Shown here: in pieces, positions 1-40,495 of the stretch
Position numbering within the stretch: the first letter of the stretch is position 1
Layout: each line of letters starts with the position of its first letter
DNA from: Alphaproteobacteria bacterium
Lineage (GTDB): Bacteria > Pseudomonadota > Alphaproteobacteria > Rs-D84 > SZUA-605
Direction of reading: 5' to 3'
Assembly (NCBI GenBank): GCA_031549385.1
Contig: JAVBPW010000006.1
Coordinates: forward strand, 1-64,000
Length of the DNA: 64,000 nucleotides
Made by a program: the position numbers and the translations under genes
The notes under the pieces: generated by a model
What the model was told of the DNA's origin: nothing
Seen by the model: only the letters and a program-made list of their open reading frames with translations
Database searches by the model: none

Positions 1-2384
1 CCTATAATAGCTTCATATGACATAACATAGCCTGATTGATCAGGTGTATCTGATAATGTGAAGATATCTTGATCTACTTTTGAATTTGTATATCCTACAT
101 TACCCAATGCAAACCATTTTCCATATGAGTATCCACCATAAAGATTTCCACCCATTGTTTTTGTTGATGATTTATAGTCTGTAGATTTACCTTTATCTCC
201 AGAGTATGATAATGCAACACCGAGTACCATTCTCCCAACTTGTCTGTCATAACCAATAACAGCACCTTGGTAATCGTTGTTGAATTTAGCTACATTACCT
301 TGAGCTGAATATTCTTCAGATCCATTGTAGTATTGTAACCAGAAACCATTCTTTTTATTTTTGTAATTATCTTTAAGATAAGCATCATACATAATATTTC
401 TATCATTTTGAGCATAAGCTAATTTTAAATCTCTTTTTAAATTATTAGCCATTAAATCACCCCTTTTATTTTCGAATATTACTCTACCCACTCTTCGAGA
501 CCCTGATAAACCAGAAGAAGCCATAGAAGATGAATTCATCTTATTCACCCCACCTGCTGGTGCTGGAGGAGGAGTTAAAGGATCTGGAATATCACCAAGT
601 CCTGTTGTATCCAACCATAATTCTTTGTTATTATTCTCATATCTTAAAGTATAATGTGATAAATCCAACAATGTTCCGTTATTATATAAAGTAGCATAAT
701 CTCCATAAACTCTTGTATTAGAAGAAGCTAATAAGTAAGCTCCATCTCCTAATGATTGAGAATTAACTGTTAAGTTTAATATAATATCACCATAAGCTGT
801 ATCACCTAATGTTAAATCACCAATATTAGAAATAATCTTAGCTTGATTCATATCTGATGTTGTATAAGCTATATTAAGTTGAGTTTGACCACCCTTATTA
901 GAATATTTAACTCCACCAGAACCTGTTGCTGAATTAAATTGATTTAATTTAGATTGAGATAAAGTCATATTAGAAAATTCCCAACCTCCAGCTGAATGTA
1001 ATGCACCTATTAATTCCCCATTACCTTGATAATTTATCATAAAAGTAGTGTTTGCGTTATAGATGGAATAATCAGAACCAATAATTTTACCACCTGTATT
1101 GTTTATTACTGCACTATAACCACCACTATCACCTATAAGTTTGGAATTTGAATTAAAACTTATACCTTTTACACCACCTTCAATTGTACTATTATTTATT
1201 ATAAATTGACGATACAAAGAGCTCGAAGAATTAAAATCCATACCAGTATCACCACCATAAACTAAACCATTATTTTCAATTCCACCATTACTTGCACTTA
1301 AATAAGAAATCCCATATTTCAATCCAGTAATTTCAGCACCTAAATTGTTTATAATTTTACCACCACTACCCCAAGCTTCAAATGCAATACCTGAAGAATC
1401 GGTTCCTGTACCTCTTATTATATTTGAATTTATTATATTTCCATTAACTGAAAATTGTCGAATACCTATTGCAGCAATAGTACCTTCAATAATTCCATTA
1501 TTTATTATTTCACCATTAAAAGAATATCCTCCTGTTCCACCACTGGAAGTACCAAAATGCATTCCATAACCATAAACTCCTATTCCTGATATTTTCGCAT
1601 TTATATTATTTGTAAGAGTCATAGGTATAGATGTCATACCATAACGACCATCTTGTCCAAAATTGATAGCTGTACCTTCTCTTTCAATAATTCCATAATT
1701 AGTTATATTGCCTAAGATATTAGACATATAAAAATACATCCCTTCTATTGTTCCATAATTAATAATATCTCCGTGAAGTTCACTAAAATATTCTGTTGTA
1801 ACACCACTAATAGTTTGTTTATTTCCAGATATTCCTATACCTTTTTTAATTATTCCTTTATTAATAATATCCCCATAAACAACTGATTGAAGCCATATTT
1901 GAATTCCATGATTTGTTCCACCTGAAATTATAGCACCTTCTTCGTTTATAATATCAGCTCTTACGGATGACGAACCTAAAGTAGCCCCTTCAAAATTTAT
2001 ACCATATGATGAGCCTTTTATAATTCCATAATTAACAATACCAGTTCCCCCATTTCCTCTAATAAGAACACCTTGACTTTGTGAAGAATCAATATTTCCA
2101 TAGTTTCTAAAATTAAAATTTGTTTTATAAAAATATATAGAAGATGTTGTAAGAGTGTTGTTTAATGTAAAGTTTACAACAGAACCAGCTGATCCAGCTT
2201 CATTTAAATGTATAAACTCTGTACTATCAGATATAGAATAACATGTATTCCCGTCTGGGCAAATATATTTTCCAGTTGCAACTAATTCAGAATTATCAGT
2301 TCCAGTCCAAGTTTGAGCATGGGAAGTGGTGGTGAAAATTGATGCGAGTGTGAAAATTGGTAGAAAAATCTTTTTAAAAGACAT
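1..2384 (-). CDS. Autotransporter (type Va) with beta-helical passenger; runs off the left edge, so absent from the ORF track
   Basis: ATG at 2384 after GAGGAGG; signal peptide MSFKKIFLPIFTLASIFTTTSHA; repeated I-x-N-x-G-x-I-x-G motifs; Pro-rich linker; beta-barrel segment GFWLQYYNG...YQGAVIGYDRQVGRMVLGVALSYS...GGNLYGGYSYGKWFALG in the same frame as the start. Confidence 0.85.
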   Translation of the reverse strand, partial: MSFKKIFLPIFTLASIFTTTSHAQTWTGTDNSELVATGKYICPDGNTCYSISDSTEFIHLNEAGSAGSVVNFTLNNTLTTSSIYFYKTNFNFRNYGNIDSSQSQGVLIRGNGGTGIVNYGIIKGSSYGINFEGATLGSSSVRADIINEEGAIISGGTNHGIQIWLQSVVYGDIINKGIIKKGIGISGNKQTISGVTTEYFSELHGDIINYGTIEGMYFYMSNILGNITNYGIIEREGTAINFGQDGRYGMTSIPMTLTNNINAKISGIGVYGYGMHFGTSSGGTGGYSFNGEIINNGIIEGTIAAIGIRQFSVNGNIINSNIIRGTGTDSSGIAFEAWGSGGKIINNLGAEITGLKYGISYLSASNGGIENNGLVYGGDTGMDFNSSSSLYRQFIINNSTIEGGVKGISFNSNSKLIGDSGGYSAVINNTGGKIIGSDYSIYNANTTFMINYQGNGELIGALHSAGGWEFSNMTLSQSKLNQFNSATGSGGVKYSNKGGQTQLNIAYTTSDMNQAKIISNIGDLTLGDTAYGDIILNLTVNSQSLGDGAYLLASSNTRVYGDYATLYNNGTLLDLSHYTLRYENNNKELWLDTTGLGDIPDPLTPPPAPAGGVNKMNSSSMASSGLSGSRRVGRVIFENKRGDLMANNLKRDLKLAYAQNDRNIMYDAYLKDNYKNKKNGFWLQYYNGSEEYSAQGNVAKFNNDYQGAVIGYDRQVGRMVLGVALSYSGDKGKSTDYKSSTKTMGGNLYGGYSYGKWFALGNVGYTNSKVDQDIFTLSDTPDQSGYVMSYEAII

Positions 2385-35013: not shown

Positions 35014-36588
35014 TTAATTACCTAATCCGGCCTTTATAAATTCCTTAAATAAAGGGTGAGATGTGAATGGAGATGATTGGTATTCTGGGAGAAATTGTAC
35101 TCCTATAAAAAATGGATGGTCTTCTATTTCTAATATTTCTGGAAGGTGATTTTCAGCTGCTCTTGCTGAGATTGTCATTCCACACTTCTTTAGAGTGTCT
35201 TCAAACATATCGTCCAATTCATAAGCATTTCTGTGGCGTTCAAGAACACTGTCTTGTCCATATACTTTGTGAGCCAAAGTATCTGGCTTGATTTGACATG
35301 TGAAATTGCCTAAACGTAGTTTTCTTGAATCGTAGGCATATACTACCGCTGTACAGTTTGCTTCAAATTCTGCAGAATGAGCGTCTGAAATACCTGCTAC
35401 ATTCTTTGCAAATTCTACGGCTGCTAATTGAAAGCCTAAACCAATACCAAAATATGGGATTTTGTTTTCACGAGCGTATTTAATTGCTCTTATCTTTCCT
35501 GGAATACCGCGAGAACCAAAGCCACCTGGAACTAATATTCCTTTTACATCTTTAAATAGTTTTTCTATTTCTTCGTCTGATATATTTTCTAAACTTTCTG
35601 ATGGGATTTGTTTTACATTTACTTTTACATTATTTGCTATACCTGCATGGAAAATAGCTTCGTTTAATGACTTGTATGAATCTGGAGTTTCAAAATATTT
35701 TCCTACCATTGCTATTGTGGTTTCTTTTTTGTCTGATGAAAGATAGTTTGCTATTCTTTCCAATTTTGATAAATCAACTGGCTGTTTTGGTTCAACTGTA
35801 AAATGTTCCAATATTCTTTCACATACGTGTTGTTCTTCATAAGCTAATGGGATTTTATAAATATTGTCTAAATCAAGAGCTGTAATTACTGACTGTGGTG
35901 CTAGGTTACAAAATAGAGCTAATTTTTCACGATCATCTTTTGATAATGCAACTGATGAACGACATAGTAATAAATCAGCTTGAATTCCTTTTTCTAATAA
36001 TGCTTTTACTGATGCTTGAGTTGGTTTTGTTTTGAGCTCTTTGGCTGAATTTATATATGGTACTAATGTCAAATGCACAAACATTGAATTTCGACGTCCA
36101 ACTTCATTTGCAAATTGACGAATTGCTTCCAAGAATATTAGGCCTTCTATGTCGCCTACAGTACCGCCTATTTCATATATAGCAAAATCTTCTTTTTGAC
36201 CGCGTTTCTTGATATGTTCTTTTATTTGATTGGTAATATGAGGAATCATTTGAACTGTGGCACCTTTATAATCACCTGCTCTTTCTTTATTCAAAACTTC
36301 CCAATAAATACGACCGCCTGATACAGAATCGTCTTTACTTAATTTAATGCCTAAAAATCTTTCGTAATAACCTAAATCTAAATCAGTTTCATAACCGTCA
36401 TGAGTCACAAAAACTTCACCATGTTGAAGAGGTGACATTTGCGATGGGTCTATATTTAAATATGGATCGAATTTTCCTACACGAACTGTGAATCCACGAG
36501 CTTGTAATAATGAACCTAATGATGCTGCAGCAACACCTTTACCTAGCGATGAAACTACACCGCCTGTTACAAAAATATATTTTGTCAT
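35014..36588 (-). CDS. pyrG: CTP synthase with a degenerate glutaminase active site
   Basis: TGGVVSSLGKG, DPYLNID and KTKPTQ intact; GIGLGFQ in place of GICLGMQ and QFLPE in place of QFHPE. Confidence 0.95.
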   Translation of the reverse strand: MTKYIFVTGGVVSSLGKGVAAASLGSLLQARGFTVRVGKFDPYLNIDPSQMSPLQHGEVFVTHDGYETDLDLGYYERFLGIKLSKDDSVSGGRIYWEVLNKERAGDYKGATVQMIPHITNQIKEHIKKRGQKEDFAIYEIGGTVGDIEGLIFLEAIRQFANEVGRRNSMFVHLTLVPYINSAKELKTKPTQASVKALLEKGIQADLLLCRSSVALSKDDREKLALFCNLAPQSVITALDLDNIYKIPLAYEEQHVCERILEHFTVEPKQPVDLSKLERIANYLSSDKKETTIAMVGKYFETPDSYKSLNEAIFHAGIANNVKVNVKQIPSESLENISDEEIEKLFKDVKGILVPGGFGSRGIPGKIRAIKYARENKIPYFGIGLGFQLAAVEFAKNVAGISDAHSAEFEANCTAVVYAYDSRKLRLGNFTCQIKPDTLAHKVYGQDSVLERHRNAYELDDMFEDTLKKCGMTISARAAENHLPEILEIEDHPFFIGVQFLPEYQSSPFTSHPLFKEFIKAGLGN

Positions 36589-36707
36589 TTCCTTCCCTTT
36601 AAAACTTTCTATTTTTTATACATACAAATATAATAGTTTATTTTCCTATGTCAATTTTGAATTTATATTTTGGAAATAAAAAAATCTTGCTGAATGCAAG
36701 AAATTTG

Positions 36708-36752
36708 TGGTAGCGGGAGAGGGATTTGAACCCACGACCCACGGATTATGAT
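36708..36752 (-). pseudogene. 3' half of the disrupted host tRNA-Met(CAT)
   Basis: ATCATAATCCGTGGGTCGTGGGTTCAAATCCCTCTCCCGCTACCA followed by terminator TCTTGC-ATTCA-GCAAGA-TTTTTTT. Confidence 0.9.
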
Positions 36753-36996
36753 ACCCCAGCGCACGAGGAAAAATACCTTTGACCCTGGCGGTTTTCTGCG
36801 GCTTTCGCAAACCTTTGTATCGGCTGGTGTCTACACGGTGTAAAACCATCCACCACCGCCCGCCTGTGTTAAACAGCCTTGTTTTGCCGTGCGGCGAAAG
36901 CGAAATATTTTAGCAAAACCTAAAAATAAGTGGCATTTTTGAATGTTTGAGGGTATAGTTACATTAACATAAAAAAGCAACTTATAAGGAAATACA

Positions 36997-37626
36997 ATGT
37001 CATATAAAGTTATTGCGGCGCTTGGCGACAGTATCACAAACGGTTATTGGGACGAAACCTTTCAGGGATGGTTTGGGCGATTGGCACAAAAAATTTCTGC
37101 CACATATCCTCAGTCCTTTGGATTCCACAACTTATCTCAAGATGGCGATAGAATCTGCGATTTTTTTCACCGTTTTGCAGCCGAAGGTTGTTCGCGTGAA
37201 ATTGATATCTTAATCGTAACTGCAAGTGGAAATGATCTGGTGCGCAGTCCAACTCCAGATAGCCCGCAAGACTTATCAGAGCATTTACGTAACGAGTATT
37301 GGCATAAACTACTAGACTTGGCGCAAAAAAATATTCCAAACATCATTGTAATGGACGCGTTGCCACGTCATAAAGACGATACTGTTGCATACGGTTGGTT
37401 TGATGCACCTATGTTTGAACCAAACTCAGACCGTATAGAATATAATAATCAGGTGGCAAAAATTTGTGCAGACCGGAAAATCCCCTTTGTCCGTCGGTAC
37501 GACAAATGGTTGACGCGCGATTTATCAAAACTCTATGTAGATACTGCCCATCCAAATGGCGAGGGACATCAATTTATAGCTGATGGAGTATATGAAGAAT
37601 TGAAAAAGTTGGGAGTATTGAAATGA
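36997..37626 (+). CDS. SGNH/GDSL hydrolase
   Basis: ALGDSIT (block I), GNDL (block III), DTAHPN (block V). Confidence 0.9.
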   Translation: MSYKVIAALGDSITNGYWDETFQGWFGRLAQKISATYPQSFGFHNLSQDGDRICDFFHRFAAEGCSREIDILIVTASGNDLVRSPTPDSPQDLSEHLRNEYWHKLLDLAQKNIPNIIVMDALPRHKDDTVAYGWFDAPMFEPNSDRIEYNNQVAKICADRKIPFVRRYDKWLTRDLSKLYVDTAHPNGEGHQFIADGVYEELKKLGVLK

Positions 37627-38378
37627 AGAACTATTTTGAAAACAAAGTTGCTTTAATAACAGGTTCAACAAGCGGTATTGGCCTGGAAATTGCAAAGCAT
37701 TTGTTGGCGGGTGGAGCAAAGGTTATTTTAAATTACAATTCCAATACTAACCAAGCACAAAAAGCCATTAAAGAATTAGCAGAATATAATAAAAGCTTAA
37801 TAGCAATAAAAGCGGATATTTCAAATGAATCCGAAATTATCGATATGTTTAAACAAATAAAATCACAATATGGGAAATTGGATTTTTTAGTAAATAACGC
37901 CGGAACAAATACAGATTCTTTAATAGAAAATTTTGATACAACCGACTTTCAGCAAGTTATAAATGTAAATTTAATTGGAAAGTTTTTATGCACAAAACAT
38001 GCAATTCCGATGTTGAAAAATAATCAAAATGCTGCGATTGTAAATGTATCATCAAACTTAGGCGTTCGGCCATGCGCAGAATCTAGTGCATATAATGCCG
38101 CTGCTGCTGGAGTTATAAATTTGACACAATCCACAGCATTGGAATTGGCTGGGATGGGTATTCGAGTTAATACGGTCAGTCCAGGATTTACACCAACACC
38201 CTTATCCTTATCCGGATGGACGACGGAAGAAATAGAGCAGAAAAAGAAAACAAACCCTATGAGACGAAATGCTACTGTAACAGACATTGCCAATACAGTC
38301 ATATTCTTACTATCTGATAAGGCAGGATTCATAAATGGGCAAAACATTTTAGTTAATGGTGGTTCAGTTATGAAATAA
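37623..38378 (+). CDS. SDR family oxidoreductase (FabG-like)
   Basis: TGSTSGIG, NNAG, IRVNTVSPG; YNAAA at the YxxxK position; ATGA overlap with the upstream gene. Confidence 0.9.
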   Translation: MKNYFENKVALITGSTSGIGLEIAKHLLAGGAKVILNYNSNTNQAQKAIKELAEYNKSLIAIKADISNESEIIDMFKQIKSQYGKLDFLVNNAGTNTDSLIENFDTTDFQQVINVNLIGKFLCTKHAIPMLKNNQNAAIVNVSSNLGVRPCAESSAYNAAAAGVINLTQSTALELAGMGIRVNTVSPGFTPTPLSLSGWTTEEIEQKKKTNPMRRNATVTDIANTVIFLLSDKAGFINGQNILVNGGSVMK

Positions 38379-38433
38379 CCTATCTTTTACTTTCTACAAA
38401 AGAAAGTAAAGGTTCGCCCGAACAGAAAATTTA

Positions 38434-38468
38434 AAAGGCTTTCAGATTCCTCTGAAAGCCTTTGTTTT
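38434..38468 (-). terminator. Terminator of the replacement tRNA
   Basis: AAAGGCTTTCAGA-GGAA-TCTGAAAGCCTTT. Confidence 0.8.
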
Positions 38469-38470
38469 GT

Positions 38471-38547
38471 TGGTAGCGGAGGAGGGATTTGAACCCCCGA
38501 CATACGGATTATGATTCCGCCACTCTAACCAACTGAGTTACTCCGCC
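38471..38547 (-). tRNA. tRNA-Met(CAT), elongator type, intact and element-borne
   Basis: GGCGGAGTAACTCAGTTGGTTAGAGTGGCGGAATCATAATCCGTATGTCGGGGGTTCAAATCCCTCCTCCGCTACCA; full cloverleaf, paired 1:72, encoded CCA. Confidence 0.95.
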
Positions 38548-38722
38548 AAAACTTTTACACACTCTAACACATTCTTTTTCGCCGTGTCCAGACCAATGTC
38601 TTTGATATGTCCGAACTGACTCCATAAATGCGTTTTTACTCTACCTATCCTCTTTCCGCCCATTCCCACTCAAACCGCCATATTGTGGCTTAAACGGGCT
38701 TAAACTGTCTTGCGGCGAAGGA

Positions 38723-38761
38723 ATTATGATTCCGTTGCTCTAACCCCTGAGCTATCCCGCC
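38723..38761 (-). pseudogene. 5' half of the disrupted host tRNA-Met(CAT)
   Basis: GGCGGGATAGCTCAGGGGTTAGAGCAACGGAATCATAAT; its acceptor strand GGCGGGA pairs with TCCCGCT of the 36708 fragment. Confidence 0.9.
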
Positions 38762-38780
38762 ATTGAATATAACTTGCATA

Positions 38781-38808
38781 AGTATATGTAATTTAATCCG
38801 AAAATCAA
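38781..38808 (-). promoter_or_regulatory. Host tRNA promoter
   Basis: TTGATT-N16-TATACT about 20 nt upstream of the 5' tRNA half. Confidence 0.65.
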
Positions 38809-38895
38809 GTGTTTTTTCTTGACTTTTTTAAAGATTTTTTGTATAATGCTTTTTATCGTTGGGTGGACTTGGTCTGCCTTTTTTTGTAGGAGTTC

Positions 38896-39429
38896 TTGAA
38901 AATGAAAAAGATATTTATTTTGATTATTGCTTTAATTCTTGTCTTAATAACTGGGTTTGTTTACTTTAAATATATTAAAAAAAAGGAAGTTATTCAAATT
39001 AATGATGGTATTACTACCATTGACTTAAATAATGACGGTACTGAAGATTTAATTGTTAAAACCTTTCATCAAACTGAATCTGCTTCATCTGATAAATTTG
39101 TTTATATGTTTTCTATTTTTGACAGTGAAACAAAAAAATATAAAAATATTCAACTTAATTCTGAGGATATTGTTGTAGAAATGCTTGGAAATGAAGAAGA
39201 TTTAACTTTAGATTGTCATAAATCTGTTATTGGTTTGAGTAAAAATTATAAAAAAGAAATTATTTTAACTATAGTTTCACTTGAACTTAATGATTTATTT
39301 AATCCCTCACCTTCTAATGCCACTATATCAAAATATAAAATAGACAATAGTTCTGGTATTTATGAATGGAAGTTAATAAATAAAGAAAAAAAGAATGGTA
39401 AATATTGTAATCTGAAAGAATTGTTATAA
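38896..39429 (+). CDS. Membrane-anchored exported protein, resembling the CarG/CpmJ family
   Basis: N-terminal TM; INDGITTIDLNNDGTEDLIV; two Cys; TTGACT..TATAAT promoter and AGGAG SD; family recalled by eye only. Confidence 0.55.
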   Translation: MKMKKIFILIIALILVLITGFVYFKYIKKKEVIQINDGITTIDLNNDGTEDLIVKTFHQTESASSDKFVYMFSIFDSETKKYKNIQLNSEDIVVEMLGNEEDLTLDCHKSVIGLSKNYKKEIILTIVSLELNDLFNPSPSNATISKYKIDNSSGIYEWKLINKEKKNGKYCNLKELL

Positions 39430-39508
39430 AAAAGATTATGTAAAAATTATATAAAACTGGCTTATTTAAGCCAGTTTTTTTTATTATAAAAAAATAAAAG
39501 GAAAAATT

Positions 39509-40156
39509 ATGGAAGTTAAAAGTGATGTAAAAAACAAAACTGTAATATATAATAATGGAAAAGAAAAAATTATAAAAAAAGGAGGAACTGTTGCTTGGAG
39601 AACTAATAATCCAGGAAACCTATCATATGGTTCTTTAGAAGGTGCTGTAAAAGATGGAGCAATTGGGGTTTACCGTTATAAAACATATAAATTTGGAATA
39701 TTTCCTGATTTTGAAACTGGAGAAAAAGCTTTAAAAAATTTATGGAAGAATAAATGGAAAAATATAATGCCTGAAAGAACAGTTAAAGAAGCTATGTTTA
39801 TATACTCTCCACCTGAAGATAATAATACCAGTAAATATATTGATAATATCAATAAAAAAGTAGATGCAAATAAGAAAATTAAAGATTTAAATGATAATGA
39901 TTTTGATAATCTATTTTCAGTTATAAAAAAACAAGAAGGTAATGGATTAGGAATAGAAAAAAGAGAAAAAGTTTCACATTTTGGATTGAAAATTGACAAT
40001 GAATATAAGGAATTTAAAGATAAACCCATTGAATATGATGCTACTGGAAAAATTATACCACCCAGAATATCAATTAATGGATCAGTTAATGTAAAAAAAC
40101 ATATTAGAGATGGATATAATGTAAATTCTTATACTAGGAGTCTTCCTAATAGATAG
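39509..40156 (+). CDS. NNPGN-motif lysozyme-like protein with a basic C-terminal motif
   Basis: GGTVAWRTNNPGNL, FGIFPDFETG, YSPPEDNNTSKY and IKKQEG; tail VNVKKHIRDGYNVNSYTRSLP. Confidence 0.65.
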   Translation: MEVKSDVKNKTVIYNNGKEKIIKKGGTVAWRTNNPGNLSYGSLEGAVKDGAIGVYRYKTYKFGIFPDFETGEKALKNLWKNKWKNIMPERTVKEAMFIYSPPEDNNTSKYIDNINKKVDANKKIKDLNDNDFDNLFSVIKKQEGNGLGIEKREKVSHFGLKIDNEYKEFKDKPIEYDATGKIIPPRISINGSVNVKKHIRDGYNVNSYTRSLPNR

Positions 40157-40219
40157 ATTATTGTCTTCTATTAGATTTTGTGATATAATTATAAGGTAAT
40201 TCTTTATAAGGAGGAAATT

Positions 40220-40495
40220 ATGGAAAATGCTTTGAAAATTAGAAATATTCTATTTAAATGTTTTATTATTAACTATATCGTAATTGTTTTAGTTTGGGGA
40301 GTTTCTTTTAGTAACTTTTTCCCTTATATGATGGAAAAATTCTTTTTGTTTGGCCCTGAAGAAACTGCAAGATATTTTGCTTTTATGCTGGGATTTTGGA
40401 AAATTATTAATGCTATTTTCTTCTTAGTACCTGCAATTGCTATTCATTGGGAATATGCTGGAAAAAAACAAAAGAAAACTGCAAAAAGAAAATAA
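40220..40495 (+). CDS. Small two-TM membrane protein (DUF6868-like)
   Basis: LFKCFIINY...GFWKI...FFLVPAIA; AAGGAGG SD. Confidence 0.7.
   Translation: MENALKIRNILFKCFIINYIVIVLVWGVSFSNFFPYMMEKFFLFGPEETARYFAFMLGFWKIINAIFFLVPAIAIHWEYAGKKQKKTAKRK

What the first reader, a model, noticed from the sequence alone, without database searches (positions are those of the whole stretch)
36708..38808. Element that destroys the host tRNA-Met at the anticodon loop and supplies a complete foreign replacement
SEEN: the 5' half (38723-38761) and 3' half (36708-36752) rejoin through the shared ATCATAAT into a 76-nt tRNA-Met. Its acceptor strands (GGCGGGA/TCCCGCT) pair with each other but not with the intact internal copy (GGCGGAG/CTCCGCT). 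The host promoter precedes the 5' half and a host-like terminator follows the 3' half. About 175 nt inside the insert, in the same orientation, lies a full, sequence-divergent tRNA-Met with its own terminator. KNOWN: tRNA-targeting integrative elements normally restore the gene by carrying a copy of its 3' part. INFERENCE: this is a different 'break and replace' strategy. The host promoter now drives the element's tRNA, so the insert can be lost only by precise excision. The 3' half has a T-T mismatch in the T stem, consistent with decay that would lock the element in.
Basis: partly seen in the sequence, partly recalled or inferred. Interest (0 to 1): 0.82.

Follow-up and report, generated by a model that had tools for sequence, protein, structure and literature searches.

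The report
Prophage fossil that replaced host tRNA-Met
A bacterial methionine tRNA gene was cut in two by an inserted element that carries its own whole copy of that tRNA, a phage trick already described as tRNA-dependent lysogeny, and here only a 2-kb immobile remnant of the element is left.

Summary
On the minus strand, a 5' half (38761..38723) and a 3' half (36752..36708) of one tRNA-Met(CAT) gene flank a 1,978-bp insert. The insert is bounded by 8-bp ATCATAAT repeats. Rejoined in silico, the halves give a 76-nt tRNA. The insert carries an intact tRNA-Met 175 nt inside, an SDR gene and a GDSL hydrolase gene. It has no recombinase.

A same-order genome (G283) has the same layout around a 33.6-kb myovirus-like prophage with a tyrosine integrase next to the orphan 3' half. 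A congener (G289) has the syntenic empty site. Two partial instances exist: G010 and metagenome contig L089.

This "break and replace" strategy is published as tRNA-dependent lysogeny for actinobacteriophages (PMC10865867). It was also noted for two Sinorhizobium prophages (PMC11476347).

The window copy is therefore best read as a decayed, locked-in remnant whose tRNA is now the genome's only gene of that tRNA type.

Several points stay open:
- Whether the host promoter drives the element's tRNA is untested.
- The T-T mismatch is not diagnostic of decay.
- Public contigs bridge the right junction but not the left one.

This is a new member of a known kind, of moderate interest.

The parts
38781..38808 (-). 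promoter-like site (TTGATT-16-TATACT) upstream of the broken host tRNA gene
   Evidence: 9 of 12 matches. This is a consensus match only.
38723..38761 (-). 5' half of the host tRNA-Met(CAT), running from the acceptor strand to the anticodon loop. Its last 8 nt are core copy 1 (ATCATAAT, 38730..38723), which marks the attL junction.
   Evidence: ARAGORN calls no tRNA here on its own.
38548..38722 (-). 175-nt spacer A, G+C-richer than the host. It is the presumed P' arm of the former attP. It contains one copy of a roughly 30-55-nt direct repeat (38719..38690) and a weak promoter-like site (38590..38561).
   Evidence: (repeat D2). It has no homologue in 328 genomes of the order.
38471..38547 (-). 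intact element-borne tRNA-Met(CAT), 77 nt. It is the only intact gene of this tRNA type in the genome.
38434..38463 (-). terminator-like hairpin after the element tRNA (13-bp stem)
37623..38378 (+). cargo gene: short-chain dehydrogenase/reductase (FabG-like), 251 aa
   Evidence: phrog_3142, category moron/AMG, E 7.7e-57.
36997..37626 (+). cargo gene: GDSL/SGNH hydrolase, 209 aa
   Evidence: Homologues at 50-69% identity occur in 5 of 327 other genomes of the order, none of them next to a tRNA.
36753..36996 (-). 244-nt region B, the presumed P arm of the former attP. It holds the second copy of the direct repeat (36898..36869).
   Evidence: No real homologue in 328 genomes of the order.
36708..36752 (-). 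3' half of the host tRNA-Met. Its first 8 nt are core copy 2 (ATCATAAT, 36752..36745), which marks the attR junction. It has a T-T mismatch in the T stem.
   Evidence: The junction is bridged by a Logan contig covering 36559-36815 with 0 differences.
36685..36701 (-). terminator-like hairpin after the 3' half, upstream of pyrG

Best explanation
The 1,978-bp insert is the decayed remnant of an integrative element, most likely a temperate phage, that used tRNA-dependent lysogeny.

**Proposed sequence of events.**
1. The element's tyrosine integrase recombined an attP site with the anticodon loop of the host's elongator-type tRNA-Met gene. The two sites shared only the 8-bp core ATCATAAT.
3. The element's own complete tRNA-Met gene lies 175 bp from the core, in the same orientation as the broken gene and downstream of its promoter. 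It took over decoding.
4. Later deletions removed the integrase and all other element genes. What remains is the tRNA, two cargo genes (an SDR and a GDSL hydrolase) and the two att arms.
5. The host is therefore now permanently dependent on the element's tRNA, and the remnant cannot leave.

**Shown:**
- the split gene and the 8-bp repeats;
- the intact internal tRNA as the sole gene of its type;
- the absence of a recombinase in the insert;
- a full prophage with the same layout in a relative, plus its empty site in a congener.

**Inferred:**
- integrase catalysis in the window's lineage;
- phage ancestry of the window copy;
- deletion history;
- expression from the host promoter.
For: **Structure of the window locus.** The split, the core repeats and the in-silico rejoin come. 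The halves match each other, and not the internal gene, through compensatory pairs.

**tRNA complement of the genome.** The genome is 0.93 Mb, 97% complete, with 37 tRNA genes. It has three CAT-anticodon genes of three different types. One has the initiator-like C1/A72 mismatch, one is of a second type, and the third is the internal gene. A TilS-type PP-loop protein (PF01171) is encoded, which is consistent with one CAT tRNA being tRNA-Ile2.

**Integrases of this lineage cross over in anticodon loops.** The same genome has two classical islands. Their 45-46-nt exact 3' repeats start at tRNA positions 31 and 33, and each island holds an integrase gene.

**G283:C9, the full-length parallel.**
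- The layout is: 5' half, then ATCATAAT, then a 174-nt spacer, then an intact tRNA-Met. The whole 33,643-bp element ends in ATCATAAT plus the orphan 3' half.
- Its G+C is 45-50%, against about 37% in the flanks.
- Of 10 proteins scanned against PHROGs, 8 had a hit. Seven hit integrase, large terminase, portal, head protease, major head, tail sheath and endolysin. One hit a DNA methyltransferase, and 2 hit nothing.
- The halves rejoin into a 77-nt tRNA-Met.
- A 22-nt exact direct repeat lies on both sides of the core, as arm-type integrase sites would.
- No other full-length tRNA of this type exists in G283.

**Empty site.** G289 contigs C25 and C15 overlap by 55 nt and are syntenic with both G283 flanks, around an intact tRNA-Met.

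**Further instances.**
- G010:C47 has a 5' half ending in ATCATAAT, then 155 nt, then an intact tRNA-Met.
- Metagenome contig L089 has a 5' half, the core, 176 nt and an intact tRNA-Met.

**Published mechanism.** The mechanism was shown experimentally for mycobacteriophages with 8-17-bp cores (PMC10865867: abstract and sections 5, 6, 10, 11 read).
Against: - The insert has no integrase or phage structural gene, so phage ancestry of the window copy rests on analogy.
- Sequence similarity between the window's arms and those of G283 is weak. Identity is 36% when anchored at the core. The longest shared run is 7 nt, which 25 of 2,000 shuffles also reach. Only a 9-nt AAAAGTTTT directly before the element tRNA is shared.
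- Regions A and B have no homologues in 328 genomes of the order.
- No closer relative of the window's genome shows an empty site. The only same-family genome (G001, 84% complete) gave no tRNA-Met match. pyrG has no tRNA within the roughly 1.5 kb fetched on either side in 4 of 4 relatives where pyrG was found.
- The left junction is not covered by the public contigs.
- The pattern found nothing in IMG/VR viral contigs and in 0 of 400 other genomes sampled across the class.
Confidence: 0.78

Rival explanations
1. The insert is a small non-autonomous integrative cassette that was never larger. It would be mobilised in trans by an integrase encoded elsewhere, and it could still excise.
For: The genome encodes four tyrosine recombinases and one large serine recombinase elsewhere. 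The insert keeps both att arms and a pair of direct repeats that could be arm-type sites.
Against: The window genome's integrases are only 27-28% identical to the integrase of the G283 prophage that uses this core. Two of them sit in their own tRNA-Gly and tRNA-Thr islands. No second copy of A, B or the cargo exists in the genome or in 328 order genomes. The only complete example found is a 33.6-kb prophage.
Confidence: 0.1
2. Two unrelated events produced the layout. A classical island restored the tRNA, giving the internal tRNA plus the 45-nt 3' repeat. A stray 5' fragment was then duplicated or inserted upstream.
For: The internal tRNA followed by an island and a 45-nt 3' repeat at 88.9% identity looks superficially like the two classical islands in the same genome.
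Against: - The 5' half and the 3' half share reciprocal compensatory pairs with each other, not with the internal gene.
- Both junctions fall on the same 8 bases.
- In G283 the same layout has a syntenic empty site where the two halves form one gene.
- The classical islands have 100% identical repeats.
Confidence: 0.05
3. It is an assembly artefact of a metagenome-assembled genome, a chimeric join at a tRNA.
For: The genome is in 8 contigs from a metagenome. Public contigs do not cover the left junction, and the listed depth left of it is lower, at 0-5 against 16-18.
Against: Eight shared bases cannot mislead a k-mer assembler. The right junction is bridged without a mismatch. The two halves are complementary to each other. 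The same layout occurs in three other independent assemblies.
Confidence: 0.04
4. The insert is an intron or a transposon. An intron would be a group I intron in the anticodon loop. A transposon would be a DDE type with an 8-bp target duplication.
For: Group I introns do occur in bacterial tRNA anticodon loops, and 8-bp duplications are typical of several IS families. Both statements are recalled from memory, not from a call.
Against: No intron family scored up to E = 1 in Rfam over 36000-39500. The insert holds two opposite-strand genes and an internal terminator. No terminal inverted repeats at the insert ends appear among the 25 longest inverted pairs listed. No rve-type transposase exists in the genome. 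The homologous layout in G283 is a prophage with a tyrosine integrase.
Confidence: 0.02

Closest known systems
tRNA-dependent lysogeny of actinobacteriophages, such as Fionnbharth, LeBron and Gaia (Guerrero-Bustamante and Hatfull 2024, PMC10865867; abstract and sections 5, 6, 10, 11 read)
   Same: A tyrosine integrase acts at an attB site in a host tRNA gene, and attP shares only a short core with it (8-17 bp in the paper's Table 2, with Gaia at 8 bp). No tRNA is rebuilt at the junctions. [quoted passage not shown] Putative arm-type sites flank the core.
   Different: - The host is a small-genome bacterium from an invertebrate gut metagenome with an alphaproteobacterial-type tRNA-Met, not an actinobacterium.
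- The target is the elongator-type tRNA-Met.
- The element tRNA lies 155-176 bp from the core and is co-oriented with the broken gene, behind the host promoter. In Fionnbharth the tRNA overlaps gene 37 and has its own demonstrated promoter (section 6).
- The window copy is a 2-kb fossil without an integrase. The words 'remnant' and 'cryptic' do not occur in that paper's main text.
- Nothing here is experimentally tested.
[quoted passage not shown]
   Same: In an alphaproteobacterium, integration in the central part of a tRNA gene inactivates it, and the prophage carries a tRNA with the same anticodon.
   Different: The target there is tRNA-Leu(UAG), and the prophages are intact ones in two strains. 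Junction details are in supplements that I could not open. No decayed remnant is described in the passages I read.
Classical tRNA-integrating islands and prophages that restore the gene (Islander-type; abstract listing of PMC4383910 seen)
   Same: They use a tyrosine integrase with the crossover at the anticodon loop. The same genome has two such islands, at tRNA-Gly and tRNA-Thr.
   Different: These carry a 45-46-nt copy of the tRNA 3' part, so an intact tRNA is rebuilt at attL. At the tRNA-Met locus only 8 bases are shared and neither junction is a tRNA.
Lactobacillus johnsonii prophage Lj965 (known to me only through the discussion of PMC10865867)
   Same: It is reported not to rebuild the tRNA at the junction and to encode a cognate tRNA.
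   Different: The host is a firmicute. I did not read the primary papers.

Membership tests
tRNA-dependent lysogeny (features as defined in the abstract of PMC10865867) | [quoted passage not shown] | tested here: met
   An 8-bp ATCATAAT lies at both junctions, inside the anticodon loop, and there is no further identity. The same core is used in G283.
tRNA-dependent lysogeny (features as defined in the abstract of PMC10865867) | no functional tRNA is reconstructed at attL or attR | tested here: met
   ARAGORN calls no tRNA at either junction in the window or in G283:C9.
tRNA-dependent lysogeny (features as defined in the abstract of PMC10865867) | [quoted passage not shown] | tested here: met
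   The internal tRNA-Met(CAT) lies at 38547..38471. The prophage tRNA-Met lies at G283:C9:13980-14056.
tRNA-dependent lysogeny (features as defined in the abstract of PMC10865867) | an element-encoded tyrosine integrase mediates the recombination | tested here: not met
   The window insert has no recombinase gene, so I file it as a remnant left by such an element and not as an active member. In G283 a 405-aa integrase (phrog_1, E 4.2e-58) lies 615 bp from the attR core. Catalysis itself is not testable here.
tRNA-dependent lysogeny (features as defined in the abstract of PMC10865867) | the disrupted host tRNA is essential and single-copy, so the element tRNA is required for survival | tested here: inconclusive
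   The window genome has only one intact gene of this type (97% complete, 8 contigs), and so does G283. Essentiality and requirement need genetics.
Classical tRNA-restoring genomic island | the element carries the displaced part of the tRNA, so an intact hybrid tRNA forms at one junction | tested here: not met
   Neither junction is a tRNA. Identity stops after 8 bases. By contrast, the islands at tRNA-Gly and tRNA-Thr have 45-46-nt exact repeats.
Group I intron in a tRNA anticodon loop | a match to the intron's conserved core structure | tested here: not met
   Rfam found no intron family up to E = 1 over 36000-39500. The insert contains opposite-strand genes and a terminator.
DDE transposon with target-site duplication | terminal inverted repeats and a transposase | tested here: not met
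   No inverted repeat pairs the two insert ends among those listed. There is no transposase in the insert. There is no rve-family hit in the genome. Other transposase families were not searched.

The most novel reading that the evidence does not exclude
Phages that practise tRNA-dependent lysogeny act as agents of permanent replacement of essential tRNA genes in reduced symbiont genomes. Once the prophage decays, its tRNA becomes the host's only copy. That tRNA sits next to attP and can capture the promoter of the broken host gene. Purifying selection on it then fixes the neighbouring phage cargo in the chromosome, which here is an SDR gene and a GDSL hydrolase gene. The result is an 'addiction' route to domesticating horizontally acquired genes, and a way for tRNA genes to be swapped between lineages.
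Probability: 0.45. Interest if true: 0.55.

Novelty: new member of a known kind. Interest (0 to 1): 0.45.

Why it matters
The finding extends tRNA-dependent lysogeny beyond its known range. That strategy has been shown experimentally only in actinobacteriophages. Here it appears in small-genome bacteria from animal-gut-type metagenomes and targets the elongator-type tRNA-Met.

It also shows the end state of the process. The phage has gone, but its tRNA remains as the genome's only gene of that type, together with two cargo genes. That is a concrete example of how a prophage can become impossible to lose, and of how 'core' tRNA genes can be replaced horizontally.

There is a practical point too. 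Island finders that look for long tRNA-fragment repeats (a general expectation, not tested here) would see only a 45-nt imperfect repeat and miss the true boundary at the 5' half.

Tried and rejected
- **Rfam over 36000-39500 at E up to 1.** Only the internal tRNA scored. No intron or other RNA family covered regions A or B.
- **Folding of A and B.** The z-scores were -1.75 and -0.12, so there is no evidence for a structured RNA.
- **A and B as DNA queries against 328 genomes of the order.** Only short matches at chance level came back. Six of the hits for B fall on the same 30 nt (query positions 181-211). I did not follow these up.
- **The whole 2.07 kb against plasmids and phages (distant mode).** Only tRNA matches were found. 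The best were alphaproteobacterial replicons at 88-90%.
- **SDR protein in genome contigs.** The best match was 35% identical, so no donor was found.
- **GDSL hydrolase in the order.** Homologues occur in 5 of 327 other genomes, in 6 loci. None of the 6 has a tRNA or the SDR gene beside it.
- **Synteny.** pyrG was found in 4 of 5 relatives searched, and none of the 4 has a tRNA within the roughly 1.5 kb fetched on either side of pyrG. None of the 10 tRNA-Met loci of relatives carries the window's flanking genes. No empty site could therefore be shown for the window's own lineage.
- **G283 integrase in viral contigs.** No relative was found.
- **Architecture pattern.** It gave 0 hits in viral contigs. 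It matched 0 of 400 other genomes sampled across the class. In metagenome contigs it hit 5 stretches. L089 is a clear instance. L090 and L091 are near-identical contigs with decayed 5' fragments upstream of an intact tRNA-Met, and the genes downstream are ordinary (katG, fur and others), so these two are uncertain. L088 and L092 are chance matches with no 5' half.
- **Order-wide 5'-part pattern.** 126 of 328 genomes had a match. Two or more matches occurred only in G000, G010, G283 and G289. G289 proved to be two contigs that overlap by 55 nt, which is the empty site and not an instance.
- **Public reads.** Only Logan contigs of one run were available. They gave no cover of the left junction and listed no joints, so I have no evidence for or against an empty site or a circular form.
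- **Homology of the window's arms with those of G283.** This could not be established.
- **Supplementary files.** The att-site figures and tables they hold may bear on the comparison.
Full report
**What is in the window.** Read on the minus strand, the region has these parts, in order:
- a promoter-like site (38808..38781);
- 39 nt that look like the first half of a tRNA, up to and including the anticodon loop (38761..38723);
- 175 nt of G+C-richer non-coding DNA (A, 38722..38548);
- a complete tRNA-Met(CAT) (38547..38471; ARAGORN; Rfam 66.9 bits);
- a 13-bp terminator hairpin;
- two genes on the opposite strand, an SDR of 251 aa and a GDSL/SGNH hydrolase of 209 aa;
- 244 nt of non-coding DNA (B, 36996..36753);
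- 45 nt that look like the second half of a tRNA (36752..36708);
- a terminator hairpin, then pyrG.

The first half ends with ATCATAAT and the second half begins with it. Removing everything between the two copies in a script gives a sequence that ARAGORN calls a 76-nt tRNA-Met(CAT). All acceptor and anticodon-stem pairs form.

The halves differ from the internal gene by reciprocal compensatory changes. In the acceptor stem the halves have GGCGGGA/TCCCGCT and the internal gene has GGCGGAG/CTCCGCT. At the top of the anticodon stem the halves have ACGGA and the internal gene has GCGGA. The halves therefore belong to one gene and the internal tRNA to another.

**Genome context.** The window is part of a 0.93-Mb genome with 30% G+C, in 8 contigs and 97% complete. 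The only public run that holds it is labelled invertebrate gut metagenome. Its tRNA-Met is most like alphaproteobacterial ones, at 88-90%.

ARAGORN finds 37 tRNA genes covering all 20 amino acids, including three CAT-anticodon genes of three different types:
- one with the C1/A72 mismatch, which I recall as an initiator feature;
- one of a second type;
- the internal gene of this locus.

A TilS-type protein is encoded, so one CAT tRNA is presumably tRNA-Ile2. Whatever the exact identities, the internal gene is the only intact gene of its type.

The same genome has two textbook islands. A 45-nt exact copy of the tRNA-Gly 3' part lies 7.5 kb downstream of that gene, beside a roughly 430-aa integrase gene. 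A 46-nt exact copy of the tRNA-Thr 3' part lies 13 kb from that gene, with another integrase between them. Both repeats begin in the anticodon loop. So integrases in this lineage cross over there, and the usual mode is to restore the gene. The tRNA-Met locus is the exception.

**What the insert is not.**
- No intron or other RNA family matches A or B, and neither folds better than shuffles.
- No terminal inverted repeats pair the insert ends.
- The insert has no recombinase or transposase.
- A and B share a direct repeat of about 30-55 nt.
- A and B have no homologues in the own genome, in 328 genomes of the order, or in plasmids and phages.
- The hydrolase has 50-69% homologues in 5 of 327 other genomes of the order, always in other contexts.
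- The SDR has no close relative among species genomes.
- Both genes match PHROG families in the moron/auxiliary category.

**The key comparison.** I searched the 328 genomes of the order for the conserved 5' part of this tRNA. A match was found in 126 genomes. Two or more matches were found only in the window's genome, G010, G283 and G289.

In G283 contig C9 the two matches are 214 nt apart on one strand. That compares with 215 nt in the window. Reading the contig shows this order:
- a strong promoter-like site;
- a 5' half ending in ATCATAAT;
- a 174-nt spacer;
- an intact tRNA-Met with a terminator;
- 33.6 kb of DNA at 45-50% G+C, against about 37% outside;
- ATCATAAT followed by an orphan 3' half.

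PHROG matches identify an integrase (405 aa, 615 bp from the second core), large terminase, portal, head protease, major head protein, tail sheath and endolysin. In all, 8 of 10 proteins scanned had a hit, one of them a DNA methyltransferase. This is a myovirus-like prophage.

Its two flanking halves rejoin into a 77-nt tRNA-Met. Their anticodon stem (GTGGA/TCCAC) again fits each other and not the prophage's tRNA (GCGGA/TCCGC). A 22-nt exact direct repeat lies 133 nt to one side of the core and 68 nt to the other, as expected for arm-type integrase sites. G283 has no other full-length tRNA of this type.

G289, of the same genus, has two contigs that overlap by 55 nt and are syntenic with both flanks of the G283 prophage. 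Together they carry one intact tRNA-Met, which is the empty site. That host tRNA is 100% identical to the G283 prophage's tRNA, so the phage tRNA was captured from a host of this genus.

**Partial instances.**
- G010:C47 has a 5' half ending in ATCATAAT, then 155 nt, then an intact tRNA-Met, on a 2.8-kb contig.
- Metagenome contig L089 has a 5' half with one acceptor type, the core, 176 nt, and an intact tRNA-Met with the other acceptor type.
- L090 and L091 show decayed 5' fragments upstream of a tRNA-Met with ordinary genes downstream. They are uncertain.

The pattern was not found in IMG/VR, nor in 0 of 400 other genomes sampled across the class.

**Mechanism.** These data fit one model. 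A temperate element has an attP that shares only the 8-bp anticodon-loop core with the host tRNA-Met gene. Integration therefore breaks the gene. The element's own tRNA-Met lies 155-176 bp from the core and is co-oriented with the broken gene, so it comes to lie behind the host promoter and supplies the function.

In the window the integrase and everything else except the tRNA, two cargo genes and the arms have been lost. The host is now locked to the element's tRNA. Integrase catalysis, phage ancestry of the window copy and promoter use are inferences. The arms of the window copy and of G283 are not demonstrably homologous (36% identity anchored at the core; longest shared run 7 nt, reached by 25 of 2,000 shuffles; a shared AAAAGTTTT before the tRNA).

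**Comparison with what is known.** A full-text search found that this strategy is published as tRNA-dependent lysogeny (Guerrero-Bustamante and Hatfull 2024, PMC10865867; I read the abstract and sections 5, 6, 10, 11). That work describes:
- a tyrosine integrase;
- a common core of 8-17 bp;
- no reconstruction of the tRNA;
- a phage tRNA of the same isotype that is required for viable lysogens.

This was shown by genetics in mycobacteriophages and predicted for other actinobacteriophages. A Lactobacillus prophage was cited as a possible case.

A study of Sinorhizobium meliloti reports two prophages that inactivate tRNA-Leu(UAG) and carry a replacement (PMC11476347, passages read; restated in PMC12429752, passages read).

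Four things are different here:
- the host group;
- the target (elongator-type tRNA-Met);
- the placement of the tRNA next to attP behind the host promoter, whereas in Fionnbharth the tRNA lies elsewhere and has its own demonstrated promoter (section 6);
- the fossil state of the window copy, which the paper's main text does not discuss (the words 'remnant' and 'cryptic' have 0 occurrences).

I could not open any supplements.

- The T-T mismatch in the T stem is real. However, an intact tRNA-Met on L090 has the same GTGGG/CCCTC stem, so it is not proof of decay.
- The rejoined tRNA is 76 nt with the D-loop AGGGGTTA. The order tRNA-Met genes of this type listed are 77 nt, apart from one of 76 nt (G014). 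This is consistent with drift in a dead gene but not decisive.
- 'Foreign' needs qualifying. The halves' acceptor type is the one seen in 9 of 9 listed loci of genus g6. The internal gene's type is seen in other families of the same order.

**Weak points.**
- Public contigs bridge the right junction without a mismatch, but do not cover 38628-38821.
- No close relative of the window's genome was available to show its own empty site.

**Verdict.** It is a new member (a decayed one) of a known kind.

Noticed in passing
G000:C7:163862-171487 and G000:C2:99448-112812 (other contigs of the window's genome): Two classical tRNA-integrated islands lie here, at tRNA-Gly(GCC) and tRNA-Thr(TGT). Their 45-nt and 46-nt exact 3' repeats start in the anticodon loop. 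Each island contains an integrase gene, and the tRNA-Thr island also has large ORFs of 920 and 664 aa. A further 18-nt copy of the tRNA-Thr 3' end lies at C2:99287-99304.
   Followed up: partly
window 38896-40495: Just outside the 5' half lie three ORFs of very low G+C (20-25%). The middle one (39509-40156, 215 aa) weakly matches the same PHROG families as the G283 prophage endolysin (transglycosylase/endolysin type, E about 1e-6). This may be another phage leftover.
   Followed up: partly
G000:C2:66626-66796: ARAGORN makes two odd tRNA-like calls beside tRNA-Cys. One has a CUA (amber-reading) anticodon and a weak D arm. The other has a 6-nt anticodon loop. Neither encodes CCA. A ParB-like ORF similar to one in the G283 prophage lies about 1 kb away (C2:67709-68428).
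   Followed up: no
G000:C4:90901-92672: A large serine recombinase (548-aa frame) lies next to a ParB-like gene that is 34% identical to the 459-aa protein of the G283 prophage. Both lie between tRNA-Tyr and tRNA-Pro, so this may be another integrated element.
   Followed up: no
L086 (G289:C15) 1-270 and L087 (G289:C25) 1-55: At the empty site the assembly breaks exactly after ATCATAAT, with a 55-nt overlap between the contigs. A 17-20-nt copy of the tRNA-Met 3' end lies about 160 nt downstream of the intact gene. These could reflect a population polymorphic for an insertion, and an old island that used the 3' end.
   Followed up: no
L009 (G010:C47) about 1690-1725, minus strand: Directly after tRNA-Phe lies a second orphan fragment that looks like a tRNA 5' half (acceptor, D arm and start of the anticodon stem), followed by unrelated sequence. 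An inverted copy of the ATCATAATCC motif lies about 100 nt further on.
   Followed up: no
L090 6744-7010 and L091 580-850: Upstream of an intact tRNA-Met lie two decayed 5' fragments of the same tRNA, each interrupted by a G+C-rich hairpin. The downstream genes are ordinary ones (katG, fur, sulfatase-modifying enzyme, cellulase).
   Followed up: partly
window 38822-39200: In Logan contigs of run X1 the summed depth left of the locus is 0-5, against 16-18 to the right. The tool warns that a filter drops records, so I could not interpret this.
   Followed up: no
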